A DNA stretch of 64,000 bases from an uncultured virus (IMG/VR IMGVR_UViG_3300017991_000099) (taxonomy: Duplodnaviria; Heunggongvirae; Uroviricota; Caudoviricetes), in the IMG/VR virus record IMGVR_UViG_3300017991_000099; one strand, written 5' to 3'. The translations under genes and the position numbers were made by a program. Positions 9,646 through 32,706 of this stretch are shown here, piece after piece (positions within the stretch are counted from its first letter, which is position 1; each line of letters starts with the position of its first letter). The notes beneath the pieces were generated by a model, which searched no databases, was not told the DNA's origin, and was given only the letters and a program-made list of their open reading frames with translations.

Positions 9646-12233
<2,588 letters not shown>

Positions 12234-26892: not shown

Positions 26893-27108
26893 ATGCTAAA
26901 AAGAATTAAATGCTTTTGGAAATCATTTATAAAAGGAGCCGGATCAATCTCTCTATATCAACCAATAATTACTTATGAAGATATACAAGCAGAAGTGGAT
27001 GATATTGAAAAAGAAGTTGATGAAAAACTGAAGGATGAAGGATATGCTCCCAGAAATCACACTGGAAGACACACTCAGAATTGCAGGCGTAGTGACTGGC
27101 CTATATAA
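26893..27108 (+). CDS. hypothetical protein
   Basis: promoter and RBS. Confidence 0.6.
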   Translation: MLKRIKCFWKSFIKGAGSISLYQPIITYEDIQAEVDDIEKEVDEKLKDEGYAPRNHTGRHTQNCRRSDWPI

Positions 27109-27625
27109 AATCGGCTCTGCTAATGGTTCAGAGCTTTCAACAGCATTGGAAGACTTTGCTGCTGAAACAATAGACGTTAATTGGGCATTGATTGGTGGTC
27201 TTGCTGTAGGTTTCCATTCAAGACCAAGAGGTACACAAGACGTAGATATTCTGTTGAAAAGCGGAGGAGATATTGATAAACTGGTTCATATGCTGAAAAG
27301 TTTTAAAAGACATAGATCACATGCTTTTGAACATAAAAAGACCGGAGTAGAGGTTGAAGTTCTTACTCCTGAATTTCTTAATATTGATTCAAGCATTGTT
27401 TCAAAAGCAATCGAGACAAGTGAAAAACATAACCTAAAAGGATCTCAAGTTCCCGTCGTTTCAAAAGCGGGATTAGTAGCTCTTAAACTGCAAAGAGGAA
27501 AACGACAAGACCTAGCAGATATTGAGAGTGTATTGTCCAAGGATCGTTCTATTGATTGTTCTGAATATAATCTGACTGAAGAACAAAAGAAAACACTAGA
27601 GGAAATTAGAGAGGATTTAAAATAA
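27035..27625 (+). CDS. nucleotidyltransferase (AbiEii/DUF6036-like)
   Basis: LIGGLAV..H.RPRGTQDVDIL; LVALKL..GKRQDLADI. Confidence 0.8.
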   Translation: MKDMLPEITLEDTLRIAGVVTGLYKIGSANGSELSTALEDFAAETIDVNWALIGGLAVGFHSRPRGTQDVDILLKSGGDIDKLVHMLKSFKRHRSHAFEHKKTGVEVEVLTPEFLNIDSSIVSKAIETSEKHNLKGSQVPVVSKAGLVALKLQRGKRQDLADIESVLSKDRSIDCSEYNLTEEQKKTLEEIREDLK

Positions 27626-27626
27626 T

Positions 27627-27647
27627 GGGCCTTTAGCTCAGTTGGTT
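27627..27647 (+). pseudogene. tRNA 5' stub
   Basis: GGGCCTTTAGCTCAGTTGGTT, then AT-rich non-tRNA sequence. Confidence 0.7.
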
Positions 27648-27700
27648 GAAAATATTAATTTAACTACGAATTTTTCGATAATACTTTTGTCTATATGTTT

Positions 27701-27712
27701 GTTCTTTGAAAA
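27701..27712 (+). promoter_or_regulatory. boxA-like antitermination site upstream of tRNA
   Basis: GTTCTTTGAAAA after the phage promoter motif. Confidence 0.5.
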
Positions 27713-27757
27713 TTAGGTGTGGGTCCGTAGCTCAGTTGGTCAGAGCGGTTGACTCAT

Positions 27758-28535
27758 CTGAACTTCAATTCATAGTTCAAATTTTTGAATAGTTGGATAT
27801 AATATAGAAGACTATTCAAAAAGGAGATTGCTATGAAAACCAAATGTGAAGTTAGAATGTTGAATGGTTACCGAGTTCTTTTGGTTCCTGATCATCCAAG
27901 AGCAATGAAAAACGACAATTGGAATGGTTATGTTTATGAACACATTCTTGTTGTAGAAAAATTCTTAAAACGATCATTATATCCAAATGAAGTAGTACAC
28001 CATTTGGATGGAAATAGAGCTAATAATCGAATTGAGAATTTGTTGGTTTTGGATAGAGGACAACATACAAAACTTCATATGTGGTTAGAATCAGGTGCTC
28101 CCGGAATCGAAAGATACGGTGAGAATGGGGTGAATTCAGGGAAATCTAAGGTTGCTTATTGTAAGTGTTGTCAGCAAACTTTGCAGCGTAAACAAAAAGA
28201 ATATTGTTCACGAGGATGTGCAAATACAGGTCGAAGAAAAGCAGAAAGACCTACTAAAGAACAATTAGCTAAAGATATTGATGATATGTCTTGGTTAGCA
28301 ATTGGAAGAAAATATGAGGTTAGCGATAATGCTGCAAGAAAGTGGGCACGACAATATGGTTTACTATGATAATCCTGAGCCAAGCTTGCCGAATTGGCAT
28401 AAAAGTAAGCAAGAAGGTGCAGAGACTAGAAAGTGAGAAGCCAGATCAATAAACTTTCAAATAGCGCCCCATACCCTAACGTAAAGTCGAGGGTAATGAG
28501 ATAGTCCACGGAGTAGTGAAAGCTACACAAACGTG
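27758..28535 (+). mobile_element. group I intron
   Basis: exon ends in U, intron ends in G; P1 CAU/CUGA pairs with UCAGGUG 28091-28097; P3 ATGGGGTG/CGCCCCAT; P GAATTCAGGGAA, Q AATCCTGAGCCAAG, R GCAGAGACTA, S GAGATAGTCC; P9 GAAA hairpin. Confidence 0.92.
27833..28369 (+). CDS. intron-encoded HNH homing endonuclease with C-terminal Zn-finger/HTH
   Basis: YVYEH...VVHHLDGNRANNRIENL; CKCC..YCSRGC; SWLAIGRKYEVSDNAARKW. Confidence 0.9.
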   Translation: MKTKCEVRMLNGYRVLLVPDHPRAMKNDNWNGYVYEHILVVEKFLKRSLYPNEVVHHLDGNRANNRIENLLVLDRGQHTKLHMWLESGAPGIERYGENGVNSGKSKVAYCKCCQQTLQRKQKEYCSRGCANTGRRKAERPTKEQLAKDIDDMSWLAIGRKYEVSDNAARKWARQYGLL

Positions 28536-28644
28536 AATCAATTGGTCGGGGGTTCAAGTCCCTCCGGACCCACCAAAAAATAAATTAGTTCTGAAATTTT
28601 TAAGACTAATTTTGTATATATGCTTGTTGAAGAAAGAGAAGAAA

Positions 28645-28896
28645 ATGGAAAAACTTACAGAAATGCTTGAAGCACATGAACGTAAAAACCTGAAAATTCT
28701 TTGTCGAATGTTCATGGCTAACCGATATGATAATGAAATGAAAGATGCACTTATCCCAGTAATGGATGCTTTCTCTGTTTGGATTGATAATCATTTTGGA
28801 GAAGGCACAACAGAAAAATGGATCGAACAAATTTGTATTGAAGCAGAAGAATCATATAAAAAGTATTGCGAAATGAGGAAAGAAATTAAAGTTTAG
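28645..28896 (+). CDS. hypothetical protein
   Basis: promoter motif upstream. Confidence 0.7.
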   Translation: MEKLTEMLEAHERKNLKILCRMFMANRYDNEMKDALIPVMDAFSVWIDNHFGEGTTEKWIEQICIEAEESYKKYCEMRKEIKV

Positions 28897-29003: not shown

Positions 29004-29082
29004 TGGGCGGAAAGCGTGGTTCGCTCGGGAATTCTTATAAAATTCTGTCTGCTGTAGGGTTCAATTCCCTCCCGCCCAACCA
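29004..29082 (+). tRNA. tRNA-Ile(TAT), atypical short D-loop
   Basis: TGGGCGG/CCGCCCA acceptor, GAATT-CTTATAA-AATTC, TTCAATT loop, CCA. Confidence 0.75.
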
Positions 29083-29204: not shown

Positions 29205-29660
29205 ATGCTTACACAAGAAAAAAGCACTGTTGGCAAAAAGGTCGGCTCGTGCATTTATATTCACCGTTTGTATGAAAAAGAAGTAATACCTAGTTTTACT
29301 TTGAATCGAGCAAAAGAAATTGCCGGAGACATAATTGAAGGATATACGGCAGTTCGATATAACAAGAAAGAACAGTCGGTATGTTTTCAATTTAGCCCTG
29401 ATTTTGATACGGCTGATGAACCGATTGTTGGTGATTGTATTTTGGTTAAGAAGAATGGTGAAGTTACTATTACAAAGCAGAAGAAAGACCCACAGATTTG
29501 GCATCATAAATGGATGTGGGTTAGGCCGGAGTATAAGGGTTTTAATTATGAGGAAAGCAAAAAGCGTAGTTGGCTTTGGATTTCTCATATAACGTCCGAA
29601 GAAAAACGAAAGATTGGCACTAAGTCTTTTTGGGATAGCATTAGGACAAGATGGGAGTAA
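29205..29660 (+). CDS. hypothetical protein resembling C-terminal region of phosphorothioation-associated putative methyltransferases
   Basis: VGKK...IYIH, PDFDTADEP, DPQIWHHKWMWV; similarity recalled, not searched. Confidence 0.5.
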   Translation: MLTQEKSTVGKKVGSCIYIHRLYEKEVIPSFTLNRAKEIAGDIIEGYTAVRYNKKEQSVCFQFSPDFDTADEPIVGDCILVKKNGEVTITKQKKDPQIWHHKWMWVRPEYKGFNYEESKKRSWLWISHITSEEKRKIGTKSFWDSIRTRWE

Positions 29661-30352
29661 TTTTGTCATTAAATAGAAACAATCAAAACAAAGATTCTGT
29701 TTCTTATAAGAGATCATTAATTATTGGGACTCTTTTAGGAGATGCATATTCTAGAAAAAGAATTTTAAAAAATGGAGGTTTAAGAGTAGAATATACAATA
29801 AGTCACTCTTTAAAACAAAAGGATTTAGTTTATTGGAAAGCATCTGAAATATCTCGTGTTTTTAATGTAAAAATTAATGTTAAAGATGAAAAATATAACA
29901 GAGCAGTTTTTTATTTAATTGGATCCAAACGGTTGCGAGTAATTCATGAGTGGTTTCATAATAAAAGAAGGAAAATAATAAGCCCAAAAATTAGATTTAT
30001 GAATCATCCTATAGGTTTGTCGATGTTGCTTTGTGATGATGGTTGTATAAACAAAAGGAAAAAGAAGCATAAAGATGGATCTATTTATTATCTTAAACCA
30101 ACAATAACAATTGCAACACATTGTTTTTTAAAAAAAGAAGTTGATATATTGTTAAATCATTTAGAAAGAACATGGGGAATTTGTGGATATATCAATCCAG
30201 AACGCAGAAACAGAAACGGATCAATTAAAGAATATCAGAGAATTTGGTTCAATTCTCAAAACAGTGAAATTTTATGGAACATTGTTTCAGATTGGATTCC
30301 TAATGTGAATTCAATGTTTAATAAGTTTGCTTTTGCTTTTGAGAGATTTTAA
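29651..30352 (+). CDS. LAGLIDADG homing endonuclease (free-standing)
   Basis: IIGTLLGDA and LSMLLCDDG motifs; SHSLKQKDLVYWK. Confidence 0.88.
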   Translation: MGVILSLNRNNQNKDSVSYKRSLIIGTLLGDAYSRKRILKNGGLRVEYTISHSLKQKDLVYWKASEISRVFNVKINVKDEKYNRAVFYLIGSKRLRVIHEWFHNKRRKIISPKIRFMNHPIGLSMLLCDDGCINKRKKKHKDGSIYYLKPTITIATHCFLKKEVDILLNHLERTWGICGYINPERRNRNGSIKEYQRIWFNSQNSEILWNIVSDWIPNVNSMFNKFAFAFERF

Positions 30353-30359
30353 ATTATAA

Positions 30360-30383
30360 GCCCCGTAGCTCAATTGAATAGAG
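30360..30383 (+). pseudogene. tRNA-Arg-like 5' stub
   Basis: GCCCCGTAGCTCAATTGAATAGAG, then non-tRNA sequence. Confidence 0.65.
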
Positions 30384-30421
30384 TAAAAACAACTTGCAAA
30401 AGGAATTTTATGTAATATAAT

Positions 30422-30496
30422 GCTCCCGTAGGTCAACGGATAGACTCAGAGATTTCTAATCTCTAGATCCCAGTTCGATTCTGGGCGGGAGTACCA
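30422..30496 (+). tRNA. tRNA-Arg(TCT)
   Basis: AGAGA-TTTCTAA-TCTCT; acceptor GCTCCCG/CGGGAGT; CCA. Confidence 0.93.
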
Positions 30497-30498
30497 AA

Positions 30499-30984
30499 AT
30501 GAAAAGTCCCCCTTGGAAAATTAAAAAGTTGATTTCTAAGGGGGATTACATATATACAAAAATCCCTAACCATCCTAAATCCACAAAACATGGATATATA
30601 TTGGAACACAGAATCATAATGGAGAATCATTTGGGGAGAATCCTTACAGCTTCTGAGATAATTCATCATAAAAATGGTAACAAGAAAGATAATCGAATTG
30701 AAAATCTGGAATTAACAAACAAAAGTAAACATGCTAGAAACCACATGAGAGAACATGGGCTTAAAATGGTTGAGCTAAAATGCCCCTTTTGTAATAAAGT
30801 TTTCAATCGTCAACACAATCTTACTCATTTAGGGAGGGGAAACGCAATAGCAACTTATTGTTCTCGAAGTTGCAATGGGAAAATGAGCAGACAAAAACAA
30901 CTTGGCAAAATCTCAAGAGAAGAATATAATAAAGCTATTGCTGGAAATGTAATCAAAGAGTATTTACGATTTATTGAGGAGTAA
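30499..30984 (+). CDS. HNH homing endonuclease
   Basis: GYILEHRIIMENHLGR..IIHHKNGNKKDNRIENL; CPFC..YCSRSC. Confidence 0.9.
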   Translation: MKSPPWKIKKLISKGDYIYTKIPNHPKSTKHGYILEHRIIMENHLGRILTASEIIHHKNGNKKDNRIENLELTNKSKHARNHMREHGLKMVELKCPFCNKVFNRQHNLTHLGRGNAIATYCSRSCNGKMSRQKQLGKISREEYNKAIAGNVIKEYLRFIEE

Positions 30985-31575: not shown

Positions 31576-32706
31576 TTACATTTTTTGCAATATCTCTAAC
31601 AATGCTTCTTCTTTCATATTGATAACGTACTCATAAACCGATTCTACTTTACCGTTATTGAAAGCGAATAATGCGTGAGGCCATAGGGTTTTCTTAGCCT
31701 CCATAGCAAATGCCTTCTTATCTTCTTTCAGGTGTTGGAGTCGTTTGTAGTCTTCTTCTATTTTACTTGTTAATGAGTCCAATCTTCTTTTCATTTCAGT
31801 AATTTGCGATTCGTACTCCGGGAAATACGACAATACTTCATCTACTTCTCCTGTACGAATGAGGATAACTAGGCGTTTGGAGTTGAGCAGGTCTTCATCT
31901 CCGGCTCCTAGAAGGTGGCTCAGAGCAAGATAACGCGGGTTTTTAATCTTTACCCGCTTGTTGTTATACTCTCCTTCATTTAGAGCATATTGAGTTAAAA
32001 CAAAGCCTTCATCTGTCGGGTTGAAGTTTTCCAGAATAGCTTGGATATCTTCTCGGGTATTGAATTCATATTCCTTGGGTCTTGCGATTACCATATTTTC
32101 AGAGATATCGTTCAAGGTTTCTTCAGAGGCTTCACACAAAGTCTCCATATTACGAGCAGTTAGAAGTCTCAGGTCGCATTCGTTGTATAGAGTAAGAACA
32201 CGATTTTCAGGACCAATCAGTTCAAAGACAAAGACGATATGTTGTTTATCTTCAATATATCTTTGGGCATTAGGATATTTTGCCCATGCTTCGTTGAACA
32301 GATCGTTGAAAGTCTTATTTTCGTTATTTCCTACATTTCCAGAGGCAAGTACGGAACCTCTTGTAGCTGCTTGCCATTTGTTTTTGTGGGGGTGGAAATA
32401 CAGGATGATAAGAGAACCGTCAACCTTCTCTTGCAATTTGGCTACATTTAGATTGAGTTGTTCTGCCGGTCCTTCGTGTTCATTAAAAAAGCGATAGAAA
32501 GGAAAGGCTACGGAATTCCAGTTATTTTTAGAATCAAGAATAAGGCCACGACATTCATTGCATTCCTGGACGTTATTGGGTGAATTTATCATATGGTAGT
32601 TGATTTGTACTAGCCCGGTATCGTCTTCGTTAACTCTGAGGGACCATTTTTCTACAGCAGCCTCTAGTCCGTGTTCTCTTATGAATTTTTGGATTGCGAG
32701 TTCCAT
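31576..32706 (-). CDS. T4 Rnl1-like RNA ligase
   Basis: ECRGLIL, PFYRFFN, EKVDGS, ATRGS, FELIGPENR, DEGFVL, RVKIK. Confidence 0.9.
   Translation of the reverse strand: MELAIQKFIREHGLEAAVEKWSLRVNEDDTGLVQINYHMINSPNNVQECNECRGLILDSKNNWNSVAFPFYRFFNEHEGPAEQLNLNVAKLQEKVDGSLIILYFHPHKNKWQAATRGSVLASGNVGNNENKTFNDLFNEAWAKYPNAQRYIEDKQHIVFVFELIGPENRVLTLYNECDLRLLTARNMETLCEASEETLNDISENMVIARPKEYEFNTREDIQAILENFNPTDEGFVLTQYALNEGEYNNKRVKIKNPRYLALSHLLGAGDEDLLNSKRLVILIRTGEVDEVLSYFPEYESQITEMKRRLDSLTSKIEEDYKRLQHLKEDKKAFAMEAKKTLWPHALFAFNNGKVESVYEYVINMKEEALLEILQKM

What the first reader, a model, noticed from the sequence alone, without database searches (positions are those of the whole stretch)
27721..28575. tRNA(CAT) group I intron whose HNH endonuclease ORF runs through the ribozyme core
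Seen: the intron sits right after anticodon CAT. The internal guide UCAGGUG (28091-28097, U.G at the splice site), P2 (CTCCCGGAATC-GAAA-GATACGGTGAG), the 5' strand of P3 (28125-28132) and the P element (GAATTCAGGGAA) all lie inside the 27833-28369 ORF and encode the linker SGAPGIERYGENGVNSGKS. The HNH domain sits in a ~330-nt L1 loop; the Zn-finger/HTH domain lies between P and Q, ending just before Q (28371). Known: the Azoarcus tRNA-Ile(CAU) intron uses this same site but has no ORF; intron ORFs usually occupy one peripheral loop. Inference: two loop insertions were fused by reading across catalytic RNA, so translation and splicing should compete. That would couple endonuclease output to tRNA supply.
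Basis: partly seen in the sequence, partly recalled or inferred. Interest (0 to 1): 0.82.

Follow-up and report, generated by a model that had tools for sequence, protein, structure and literature searches.

The report
Endonuclease gene threaded through tRNA intron
A phage tRNA gene is split by a self-splicing-type intron whose DNA-cutting enzyme gene runs straight through half of the catalytic RNA, so one 60-base stretch serves both as ribozyme core and as the flexible link between the enzyme's two domains.

Summary
Window 27721-28575 is a tRNA(CAU) gene split after the anticodon by a 778-nt group I intron (Rfam RF00028, 76.3 bits). The 178-codon HNH ORF (27833-28369) reads through the guide sequence, P2 and the 5' strands of P3, P4 and P5. 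Its stop codon lies in the 3' strand of P5.

Thirteen other distinct metagenomic or viral loci keep the same architecture. Across 14 sequences, 90.2% of pair cells are standard pairs (0 of 500 shuffles as high), and P2 is a GNRA hairpin in 14 of 14. Codon periodicity is lost over P3-P5 (third-position identity 0.74 against 0.39 in the domains). AlphaFold2 places this stretch in the low-confidence linker between the domains.

An ORF-less sister intron shows that L1 and L5 are the two expanded loops. But both protein domains, in the same order, occur in free-standing relatives that sit next to intact tRNA(CAU) genes, so this is one gene threaded through the core, not two unrelated insertions. 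Competition between translation and splicing is plausible but untested.

ORFs that cross ribozyme cores are in print, and this scan has noted similar cases on other DNA. I rate it a new variant of a known kind.

The parts
27721..27757 (+). tRNA(CAU) 5' exon: acceptor 5' strand, D arm, anticodon-stem 5' strand, CUCAU
   Evidence: sequence; ARAGORN intron mode; anticodon stem 94.3% paired, with changes on both sides at 5 of 5 pairs
27758..28535 (+). group I intron, 778 nt, ending in omega-G 28535
   Evidence: RF00028 76.3 bits; G at 28535 invariant in 14 of 14
27755..27761 (+). P1 5' strand (CAU|CUGA) holding the 5' splice site
   Evidence: pairs with 28091-28097; CG, AU and UG pairs in 14 of 14
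27762..28090 (+). L1, 329 nt: leader plus the HNH-domain coding part
   Evidence: the ORF-less sister intron in L099 has an L1 of 30 nt
27776..27803 (+). promoter-like site TTCAAA-16-TATAAT inside the intron, upstream of the ORF
   Evidence: 10 of 12 matches; the number of such sites in the region is not above chance (5 found, 6.6 expected)
27769..27835 (+). predicted leader hairpins that pair the start codon and part of the Shine-Dalgarno (AAGGAG, 27821-27826) with intron bases 27769-27778
   Evidence: MFE -27.5 kcal/mol, z -3.56, 1 of 200 shuffles as good; start codon at least 2 of 3 nt paired in 10 of 11 long-leader relatives (no shuffle control)
27833..28369 (+). HNH homing-endonuclease ORF, 178 aa: HNH domain, linker, C4 zinc ribbon, helical HTH-like domain
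   Evidence: PF13392 E 1.1e-9; phrog_15471 E 1.3e-30; AF2 mean pLDDT 89.2
28091..28097 (+). internal guide sequence UCAGGUG (P1 3' strand), codons S87-G88-(A89)
28098..28123 (+). P2 hairpin with GAAA loop, codons A89-E97
   Evidence: hairpin capped by a GNRA loop in 14 of 14 (13 GAAA, 1 GAGA) with unrelated stem sequences
28125..28132 (+). P3 5' strand (pairs with 28465-28472)
   Evidence: helix 4: 4 of 8 pairs changed on both sides
28135..28141 (+). P4 5' strand, the P element (pairs with 28373-28379)
   Evidence: helix 5: 99.0% paired, 4 of 7 pairs changed on both sides
28145..28150 (+). P5 5' strand UCUAAG (pairs with UAUGA 28365-28369)
   Evidence: helices 6-7; the likeness to a tetraloop-receptor motif is recalled, not tested
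28151..28364 (+). L5: coding part for the zinc ribbon and HTH-like domain
   Evidence: C110, C113, C125, C129 invariant; L5 is 4 nt in the ORF-less sister intron
28365..28379 (+). P5 3' strand holding the stop codon TGA (28367-69), J5/4, and P4 3' strand (Q element)
28385..28413 (+). P6 hairpin
   Evidence: helix 8: 100% paired, 4 of 5 pairs changed on both sides
28422..28428 (+). P7 5' strand in the R element (pairs with 28502-28507)
   Evidence: helix 9: 100% paired, 5 of 6 pairs invariant
28465..28472 (+). P3 3' strand
28473..28494 (+). P8 hairpin
   Evidence: helix 10: 82.9% paired
28502..28507 (+). P7 3' strand (S element)
28513..28526 (+). P9 hairpin with GAAA loop
   Evidence: helix 11: 95.7% paired, 4 of 5 pairs changed on both sides
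28536..28575 (+). tRNA(CAU) 3' exon: AA of the anticodon loop, stem, variable loop, T arm, acceptor, and encoded CCA 28573-75

Best explanation
**What it is.** This is a mobile-type group I intron of the Azoarcus kind. It sits after the CAU anticodon (position '5Ug' in Williams' naming) of a tRNA(CAU) gene in an uncultured large phage. The tRNA is not an initiator type. Whether it is an elongator Met or an Ile2 tRNA is undecided.

**The gene inside it.** One complete two-domain HNH homing-endonuclease gene is threaded through the 5' half of the ribozyme. The nuclease domain is encoded in loop L1. The zinc-ribbon/HTH DNA-binding domain is encoded in loop L5. The roughly 20-codon linker between them is encoded by the guide sequence, P2 and the 5' strands of P3, P4 and P5.

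**Which constraint wins.** In that stretch the RNA sets the sequence and the protein follows. This is tolerated because the stretch is a flexible linker.

**Inferred function (not shown).**
- The pre-tRNA folds with a long-range P1, 334 nt apart, and self-splices to give tRNA(CAU).
- The enzyme cuts intron-less tRNA(CAU) genes of related phages, and repair copies in the intron and its gene.
- A ribosome on codons 87-178 must melt P1 to P5. A given RNA molecule can therefore be translated or spliced at one moment, not both.
- A predicted hairpin over the start codon in the pre-tRNA, and a promoter-like site inside the intron, may keep translation off the precursor.

**Inferred origin.** The gene comes from a family of free-standing HNH genes that sit beside tRNA(CAU) genes. 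It was captured once, and some descendants later lost the ribozyme.
For: **Ribozyme**
- RF00028 scores 76.3 bits.
- On 14 sequences and 51 pairs, 90.2% of pair cells are standard pairs against 75.0% in shuffles (0 of 500 as high).
- 29 of the 51 pairs change on both sides. Controls with the 3' partner slid by 1-3 columns give 32-41% paired.
- U.G at the splice site and omega-G are kept in 14 of 14.
- P2 is a GNRA hairpin in 14 of 14.

**Same architecture elsewhere**
- An RF00028 hit starts about 225 nt into the ORF in L005, L007, L008, L012/13, L017, L018, L019, L020, L022, L023, L024/30, L097 and L099, at 34-78 bits. L008 (42.2), L018 (41.6) and L022 (34.2) fall below the gathering score of 50.
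- All have a tRNA 5' half ending in CTCAT upstream.

**Dual coding**
- Pairwise identity at codon positions 1/2/3 is 0.63/0.78/0.41 in the HNH part and 0.56/0.60/0.38 in the ZnF/HTH part.
- It is 0.73/0.87/0.74 over P3-P5 and 0.48/0.52/0.48 over the guide sequence plus P2.
- Third positions: 0.74 (n=9) against 0.39 (n=145), Mann-Whitney p 5.8e-5.

**Protein**
- PF13392 and phrog_15471 over the full length.
- H56, H57, N65, N69, H78 and four Cys are invariant in 25 sequences.
- AF2 mean pLDDT is 89.2. The lowest block is residues 91-100 (mean 52), and residues 97-100 are below 50. That is the stretch encoded by the 3' side of P2 and by P3.

**One gene, not two**
- Free-standing homologues carry both domains.
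- No intron is found at E up to 0.1 in the 4 cultured-phage loci examined.

**Link to tRNA(CAU)**
- 6 of 11 free-standing metagenomic or genomic loci have an intact tRNA(CAT) gene within 30 nt of the ORF.

**Phylogeny**
- A branch with 96/96 support unites all 17 intron-associated rows with 6 free-standing rows.

**Decay series**
- L029 keeps the 5' exon, the ORF, the guide sequence and P2, but has a decayed P4 and no 3' exon.
Against: - No RNA data exist. No listed sequencing run that holds the stretch is an RNA run, so neither splicing nor translation is shown.
- Cleavage specificity is unknown.
- The tree is unrooted and unresolved inside the key clade. The bootstrap had not settled, and the label 'embedded' needs 4 changes on the drawn tree. 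Direction and number of captures are therefore inferred.
- How one gene came to straddle a 60-nt core segment needs at least two rearrangements, and I found no intermediate for this family.
- The promoter-like site is no more than chance would give.
- The count of hidden start codons in relatives has no shuffle control.
- Three relatives (L005, L008, L099) have their start codon 1-16 nt from the splice site, with no room for such controls.
- Foldseek and PDB sequence searches gave no significant match for the protein.
Confidence: 0.8

Rival explanations
1. One reading: two separate loop insertions, a nuclease module in L1 and a DNA-binding module in L5, became one protein only by reading across the ribozyme. 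On this view the two-domain family was born in this intron, and free-standing members are escapees whose linker is a decayed piece of ribozyme.
For: - Relative to the ORF-less sister intron in L099, exactly two loops are expanded.
- The tree is unrooted, so a root inside the intron-associated clade is not excluded.
- Free-standing members inside that clade keep GGTGCTCC (guide sequence plus the start of P2) in the linker (L026, L031), or a P2-like GNRA hairpin (L021). L029 is caught mid-decay.
Against: - The two-domain protein is widespread as a free-standing gene in unrelated cultured phages of Pseudomonas, Bacillus, Vibrio, Salmonella and others. 34 records cover at least 80% of it.
- The outgroup linkers show no trace of the guide sequence, P3 or P4.
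- Other HNH genes in neighbouring tRNA introns sit whole in L1 (L007 1593-2090).
Confidence: 0.1
2. The overlap is a regulatory device. Ribosome passage through P1-P5 is used to time or ration tRNA(CAU) maturation against endonuclease synthesis, which is the reader's coupling of enzyme output to tRNA supply.
For: - Mutual exclusion on one RNA molecule follows from the anatomy.
- In T4, ribosome occupancy of I-TevI intron sequence causes a splicing defect (passage of PMC3073962).
- In L099 the start codon lies inside P1, and in L005 and L008 it lies within 16 nt of the splice site.
Against: - There is no expression data.
- Predicted hiding of the start codon and a possible internal promoter point to avoidance of the conflict rather than use of it.
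- The excised intron still carries the whole ORF and could serve as the message.
- The variable position of the stop codon among relatives looks like drift.
Confidence: 0.15
3. The ribozyme is a dead relic and the tRNA a pseudogene. On this view the ORF is in effect a free-standing gene lying in the wreck of an intron.
For: Such a state exists in L029. The long-range P1 across a 329-nt loop might be inefficient.
Against: - The window scores 76.3 bits.
- Every helix is intact, and covariation and third-position constraint persist across 14 loci.
- Exons are intact, with a covarying anticodon stem.
Confidence: 0.05

Closest known systems
Azoarcus sp. BH72 tRNA-Ile(CAU) group I intron, the 'Ile2.5Ug' class, subgroup IC3 (class and subgroup from Williams 2020, bioRxiv 10.1101/2020.01.27.920355, text read; details of the Azoarcus RNA are recalled)
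   Same: Same insertion site, after CAU in the anticodon loop. U.G at the splice site and omega-G. Compact core with GAAA loops on P2 and P9.
   Different: The Azoarcus intron has no ORF (recalled) and is bacterial. Here L1 and L5 carry a 178-codon gene and the host is a phage. Whether this tRNA is Ile2 or Met is not decided.
Synechocystis PCC 6803 tRNA-fMet intron encoding I-Ssp6803I (Table 1 of PMC3073962, passage read)
   Same: A tRNA(CAU)-type gene with a group I intron. The endonuclease ORF is in P1 and overlaps P1/P2 by 61 nt.
   Different: Different site (fMet.2Ug in Williams 2020). The enzyme is a PD-(D/E)XK nuclease. The overlap is at the end of the ORF, with no protein domain beyond the core.
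Synechococcus LSU rDNA intron L1917 with a LAGLIDADG ORF (Haugen 2007, PMC1995217, one passage read)
   Same: The ORF leaves its loop and reads through core helices (P6 to P7, P3 and P8, stopping in P9). The authors note the double constraint.
   Different: rRNA host, other enzyme family, and the 3' half of the core. I did not see whether a conserved domain lies on both sides of the core there.
'Core creep' and the T4 td intron with I-TevI (Edgell, Chalamcharla and Belfort 2011, PMC3073962, passages read)
   Same: ORF/core overlap. The 3' end varies among relatives, as that model predicts. A hidden ribosome-binding site and a splicing defect when ribosomes occupy core sequence.
   Different: Core creep explains extensions at the ends of an ORF. 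Here the overlapped stretch lies between two conserved domains, which a moved stop or start codon cannot produce.
Free-standing HNH genes in phage tRNA clusters, such as phiKZ gp296 (PHIKZ296), Psa21_414, pW2 gp172, Emiliahah gp51
   Same: Same protein family and domain order: 40-48% identity, with invariant catalytic and Cys residues. All are associated with tRNA genes.
   Different: No intron nearby. Linkers are shorter and unrelated.

Membership tests
Group I intron (Rfam RF00028) | Core matches the covariance model above the curated threshold | tested here: met
   76.3 bits against a gathering score of 50, E 1.4e-17
Group I intron (Rfam RF00028) | U at -1 forming a U.G wobble with the guide sequence in P1 | tested here: met
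   T27757.G28095; UG in 14 of 14, flanked by CG and AU in 14 of 14
Group I intron (Rfam RF00028) | G at the last intron position (omega-G) | tested here: met
   G28535 is invariant in 14 of 14
Group I intron (Rfam RF00028) | P3-P9 helices, including the P7 pseudoknot, supported by comparison | tested here: met
   90.2% of cells paired, 29 of 51 pairs changed on both sides, 0 of 500 shuffles as high; P7 100% paired
Group I intron (Rfam RF00028) | Guanosine-dependent self-splicing | not testable with these tools
   No RNA run listed; needs a bench assay
tRNA 'Ile2.5Ug' / IC3 class | Insertion after the fifth anticodon-loop base (CUCAU/AA) | tested here: met
   class definition from Williams 2020
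tRNA 'Ile2.5Ug' / IC3 class | Host tRNA is tRNA-Ile2 (lysidine type) | tested here: inconclusive
   A G1-C72 pair and no run of three G-C pairs in the anticodon stem argue against an initiator (established knowledge). No tool here separates Met from Ile2.
tRNA 'Ile2.5Ug' / IC3 class | Subgroup IC3 core and peripheral features | not tested
   GAAA loops on P2 and P9 were seen. The comparison with IC3 is recalled; no subgroup model was run.
HNH homing endonuclease | HNH domain above the Pfam cut-off with conserved His/Asn | tested here: met
   PF13392 38.2 bits against 24.8; H56, H57, N65, N69, H78 invariant in 25 sequences
HNH homing endonuclease | Cuts the intron-less allele; presence/absence polymorphism at one site | tested here: inconclusive
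   Intact tRNA(CAT) genes lie beside free-standing relatives, and an ORF-less sister intron exists. No intron-less allele of this phage was seen. The joints come from other organisms' tRNA genes.
Core creep (Edgell 2011) | Overlap arises at an ORF end and varies in length among relatives | tested here: met
   Among 17 rows the stop lies in P5' in 5 (window, L018, L020, L024, L025), one or two codons past that point, still before P4', in 2 (L019, L029), in P4' in 1 (L005), 22-25 codons further in 7 (L007, L008, L012, L013, L022, L023, L097), and further still in 2 (L017, L099).
Core creep (Edgell 2011) | Overlapped codons are a dispensable terminal extension | tested here: not met
   The overlap 28091-28150 is followed by a conserved zinc-ribbon/HTH domain with coding periodicity (0.56/0.60/0.38) and pLDDT 84-96.

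The most novel reading that the evidence does not exclude
Ribozyme sequence has been taken over as protein. Once the gene was threaded, the guide sequence, P2, P3 and P4 became the enzyme's interdomain linker. When the ribozyme later decayed, free-standing descendants kept that RNA-derived peptide (GAPG/GAPS in L026 and L031). In the strongest form, the whole two-domain tRNA-cluster HNH family, including phiKZ gp296, was first joined by reading across this ribozyme. Ribosome passage through the core would then gate tRNA(CAU) maturation.
Probability: 0.12. Interest if true: 0.8.

Novelty: new variant of a known kind. Interest (0 to 1): 0.6.

Why it matters
- **A test bed for RNA against protein constraint.** Sixty bases are under measurable RNA constraint while encoding the middle of a working protein, and at least 14 natural variants are available. 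This makes the open questions raised by Edgell et al. (2011) testable. How do an ORF and a core co-evolve? What does translation do to splicing?
- **An exception to the published pattern.** A 2014 review stated that all phage introns seen to that date lie in protein-coding genes despite the many phage tRNA genes (PMC3984707, passage read). A 2025 study still asks why phage introns colonise only core genes (PMC11878797, passage read). These loci show tRNA clusters of uncultured phages crowded with introns and homing-endonuclease genes.
- **A practical point.** Standard tRNA finders miss such genes, so phage tRNA repertoires are under-counted.

Tried and rejected
- **DNA search.** blastn of 27600-28700 against 50,697 phage records: no match.
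- **Whole genome.** None is held for this window.
- **Alternative stop-codon readings.** No jump to long ORFs, so the standard code is kept.
- **Structure and sequence searches.** Foldseek of the AF2 model against PDB gave nothing at E up to 0.001. A profile of A5 against PDB sequences gave nothing below E 0.1.
- **RNA evidence.** No RNA holder is listed.
- **Read laying on three DNA runs.**
  - Fragments identical to the window, including both intron borders, occur in two further runs.
  - The many 'skips about 780-800' joints have short sides (20-37 letters), were laid at 85% likeness, and carry other letters. I read them as other organisms' uninterrupted tRNA genes, not as intron-less alleles of this phage.
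- **Alignment failure.** MAFFT placed the 5' core of the ORF-less L099 intron wrongly. I replaced it with segment-wise pairwise alignment.
- **T-arm-like motif.** The leader of many relatives holds GGTTCAAAT or GGTTCGAGTC. I considered that it is a remnant of a former tRNA 3' half, or a -35 box. I could not decide and make no claim.
- **Short-range guide sequence.** None found: there is no GTG between 27758 and 27832.
- **Rearrangement routes.** I considered tandem duplication of the core segment followed by two deletions. No intermediate was found.
Full report
**1. The observation**

The sequence shows a tRNA gene in two pieces. The 5' exon, 27721-27757, runs through the acceptor strand, the D arm and the anticodon-stem strand to CTCAT. 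The 3' exon, 28536-28572, begins AATCAAT and is followed by an encoded CCA.

Default ARAGORN does not see the gene. With introns allowed it reports a split tRNA at exactly 27721-28575 with a 778-nt intron. It names the tRNA Gln(ctg), because moving the intron by two bases also leaves a seven-base loop. Only the CAT reading puts U before the 5' splice site and G at the end of the intron, and it is the reading shared by all relatives.

Rfam's group I model scores 76.3 bits (gathering score 50) at 28077-28528.

The model cannot span the 329-nt L1, so it draws a false local P1.

ORF 27833-28369 covers all of these elements. Its TGA is part of the 3' strand of P5.

**2. Evidence that the ribozyme inside the ORF is real**

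The protein query brought in related loci from IMG/VR, JGI/ENA metagenomes and GTDB genomes. In 13 distinct loci besides the window, an RF00028 hit begins about 225 nt into the homologous ORF. These are L005/6, L007, L008, L012/13, L017, L018, L019, L020, L022, L023, L024/30, L097 and L099. Scores run from 34 to 78 bits, and L008, L018 and L022 are below the gathering score. Each has a tRNA 5' half ending in CTCAT just upstream.

I mapped my helices onto a 14-sequence alignment (A4). The results:

| Measure | Value |
|---|---|
| Pair cells that are standard pairs | 90.2% |
| Same, 3' letters shuffled | 75.0% (0 of 500 shuffles as high) |
| Same, 3' partner slid by 1-3 columns | 32-41% |
| Pairs changed on both sides | 29 of 51 |
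| P4 | 99% paired, 4 of 7 pairs changed on both sides |
| P3 | 4 of 8 pairs changed on both sides |
| Three P1 pairs around the splice site | invariant, 14 of 14 |

The P1 extension differs and still pairs: CUGA/UCAG in the window, AGGAG/CUCUU in L008, CCGC/GCGG in L017 and UAU/AUA in L099 (read).

P2 does not align column by column. Folded singly, it is a hairpin capped by a GNRA loop in 14 of 14 (13 GAAA, 1 GAGA), with unrelated stems.

**3. Dual coding**

Mean pairwise identity by codon position:

| Region | Position 1 | Position 2 | Position 3 |
|---|---|---|---|
| HNH part | 0.63 | 0.78 | 0.41 |
| ZnF/HTH part | 0.56 | 0.60 | 0.38 |
| P3 to P5 (28124-28150) | 0.73 | 0.87 | 0.74 |
| Guide sequence plus P2 | 0.48 | 0.52 | 0.48 |

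The two domain parts show ordinary coding periodicity. The two core parts show none. Third positions are more conserved in the P3-P5 stretch than in the domains: 0.74 (n=9) against 0.39 (n=145), Mann-Whitney p 5.8e-5.

The amino acids follow the RNA. ENGVNSGK becomes VNGKNCKK in L008, where P3 and P4 carry compensatory changes.

An AlphaFold2 model built on 25 sequences has a mean pLDDT of 89.2. The weakest block is residues 91-100 (mean 52) and residues 97-100 are below 50. That places the RNA-dictated stretch in a flexible link between two confident domains.

**4. What the protein is**

- Pfam HNH_3, E 1.1e-9.
- phrog_15471 over residues 28-176 of 178.
- Invariant H56, H57, N65, N69, H78 and four cysteines.
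- tblastn finds 128 cultured-phage records. 34 of them cover at least 80% of the protein, and the best is 47.6% identical.

The four homologues I opened (phiKZ gp296, Psa21_414, pW2 gp172, Emiliahah gp51) all lie inside tRNA gene clusters. None has a group I match at E up to 0.1. They have both domains in the same order and a shorter, unrelated linker.

I examined 11 free-standing metagenomic or genomic relatives. Six have an uninterrupted tRNA(CAT) gene within 30 nt of the ORF: L021, L031, L033, L035, L036 and L039. A seventh, L040, has one 420 nt away. L016, L026, L034 and L098 have none adjacent.

The family therefore lives beside, or inside, tRNA(CAU) genes. This fits a homing enzyme whose target is that gene. 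That step is inferred.

**5. Origin**

Locus L099 carries two neighbouring tRNA(CAU) genes with sister introns:

| | ORF-less copy | ORF-bearing copy |
|---|---|---|
| L1 | 30 nt | 253 nt |
| L5 | 4 nt | 232 nt |
| 3' core | 163 nt | 163 nt |

131 of 164 aligned 3'-core columns are identical.

But the two inserts are the two halves of one older gene. 'Fused by reading across' therefore describes the result, not the history.

A maximum-likelihood tree of 32 proteins puts all 17 intron-associated rows, together with 6 free-standing rows, on one side of a 96/96 branch. The phiKZ-like, Bacillus-phage and L033/34/39/40 forms lie on the other side. Inside the clade the tree is unresolved, the bootstrap had not settled, and the tree is unrooted.

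Some free-standing members inside that clade keep traces of the ribozyme in the linker. L026 and L031 keep GGTGCTCC, and L021 keeps a GNRA hairpin. L029 keeps the 5' exon, the ORF, the guide sequence and P2, but has a decayed P4 and no 3' exon. I read these as secondary losses of the ribozyme.

I found no intermediate for how a whole gene came to straddle a 60-nt core segment. Whole HNH genes that sit in L1 and creep through the core at their 3' end do occur in neighbouring tRNA introns: L007 tRNA-Arg(UCU), ORF 1593-2090, and L033 tRNA-Leu(UAA), ORF 535-1116. One possible route is capture into L1, then duplication of the core segment into the linker, then loss of the spare copies. This is conjecture.

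**6. Translation against splicing**

A ribosome on codons 87-178 must unwind P1 to P5, so translation and folding exclude each other on one molecule. In T4, ribosome occupancy of I-TevI intron sequence causes a splicing defect (passage of PMC3073962).

In the window the leader folds well: -27.5 kcal/mol, z -3.56, with 1 of 200 shuffles as good. The fold pairs the start codon with 27769-27774. In 10 of 11 long-leader relatives, at least two of the three start-codon bases are paired in the minimum-energy fold. That count has no shuffle control.

A TTCAAA-16-TATAAT site at 27776-27803 could start a message that lacks the masking arm. Such sites are no more frequent here than chance.

L005, L008 and L099 have their start codons 1-16 nt from the splice site, and in L099 the start codon is inside P1.

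I could not test expression, because no RNA run is listed. Fragments identical to the window, including both intron borders, occur in two other metagenome runs.

Nothing supports a designed coupling of enzyme output to tRNA supply.

**7. Comparison with what is known**

- **Insertion site.** It is that of the classical Ile2.5Ug (Azoarcus) class. The Synechocystis fMet intron is at another site, 2Ug (Williams 2020, text read; its table and figures are images and its supplements are closed, so I could not see whether ORF-bearing 5Ug introns are listed).
- **ORF/core overlap is described.** Table 1 of Edgell et al. 2011 lists I-Ssp6803I in P1, overlapping P1/P2 by 61 nt. Haugen et al. 2007 describe an ORF that starts in P6 and runs through P7, P3 and P8 to P9, and call such cases uncommon.
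- **Core creep.** The model explains the variable 3' end seen here. Among 17 rows the stop lies in P5' in 5, one or two codons beyond it in 2, in P4' in 1, and 22 or more codons further in 9. It does not explain an overlap that lies between two conserved domains.
- **Phage introns.** The 2014 review says all phage introns known to that date lie in protein-coding genes.
- **Literature searches.** Three full-text searches turned up no paper describing a group I intron in a phage tRNA gene. The library lacks most subscription journals.
- **Earlier notes of this scan.** These are unchecked AI notes on other genomes. They report phage tRNA introns with HNH genes and ORFs threaded through ribozyme cores. 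The general phenomenon is therefore not new to the scan.

**8. Verdict**

This is a new variant of a known kind: a conserved lineage of phage tRNA(CAU) introns in which the 5' half of the ribozyme doubles as the interdomain linker of its own homing endonuclease. Interest 0.6.

Noticed in passing
window 27627-27649: A 23-nt fragment (GGGCCTTTAGCTCAGTTGGTTGA) looks like the 5' end of a tRNA gene (acceptor strand plus half of the D arm) and then breaks off. It starts two bases after the stop of ORF 27035-27625. A similar orphan fragment stands at about L033 1326.
   Followed up: no
window 29651-30984: tRNA-Arg(UCU) (30422-30496) is flanked by a weak LAGLIDADG-like ORF (29651-30352, phrog_11023, E 2.2e-6) and, two bases after its end, a second HNH ORF (30499-30984, phrog_20891, E 1.1e-22). 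The tRNA cluster is a hot-spot for homing-endonuclease genes.
   Followed up: partly
window 29004-29082: ARAGORN calls a tRNA-Ile(UAU) here, but Rfam's tRNA model does not reach its gathering score.
   Followed up: no
window 27035-27625: The ORF just upstream has weak, below-threshold matches to nucleotidyltransferases of the AbiEii / DUF6036 kind (E 2e-3 and 9e-4).
   Followed up: no
window 9646-11667 and 31576-32706: NAD-dependent DNA ligase (phrog_3869, E 1.3e-170) and an Rnl1-type RNA ligase (phrog_562, E 1.2e-42). Otherwise the window holds mostly short ORFs without family matches. It looks like the early region of a large phage.
   Followed up: partly
L008 3337-3632: tRNA-Leu(UAA) split between U and AA by an ORF-less 212-nt group I intron (59.4 bits). 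This is the classical cyanobacterial/plastid site, here on a 170-kb viral contig.
   Followed up: partly
L007 1553-2231: tRNA-Arg(UCU) with a 606-nt intron. Its HNH ORF (1593-2090) starts 6 nt after the splice site and ends in the 3' strand of P4, so the whole gene sits in L1 with creep at its 3' end.
   Followed up: partly
L033 446-1279: tRNA-Leu(UAA) with a 749-nt intron (80.3 bits). Its 193-codon zinc-finger/HNH ORF (535-1116) overlaps about 180 nt of the core.
   Followed up: partly
L022 2869-3471; also L023 859-1203 and L037 233-592: Phage-like contigs carry tmRNA genes. In L022 the tmRNA match (102.5 bits) runs into a strong group I match (85.6 bits), as in the intron-split tmRNA genes mentioned by Williams 2020.
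   Followed up: no
L036 1012-1627: A ROOL RNA (RF03087, 195.3 bits) lies directly after the free-standing HNH gene.
   Followed up: no
L099 989-2766: Three group I matches lie within 3.5 kb of a contig binned as Bacteroidales (74.7, 69.5 and 75.3 bits). They include two neighbouring tRNA(CAU) genes with sister introns, one ORF-less.
   Followed up: yes
L029 1425-2110: tRNA(CAU) 5' exon plus an intact HNH ORF, with a decayed ribozyme and no 3' exon. The endonuclease gene has outlived its intron and its host gene.
   Followed up: partly
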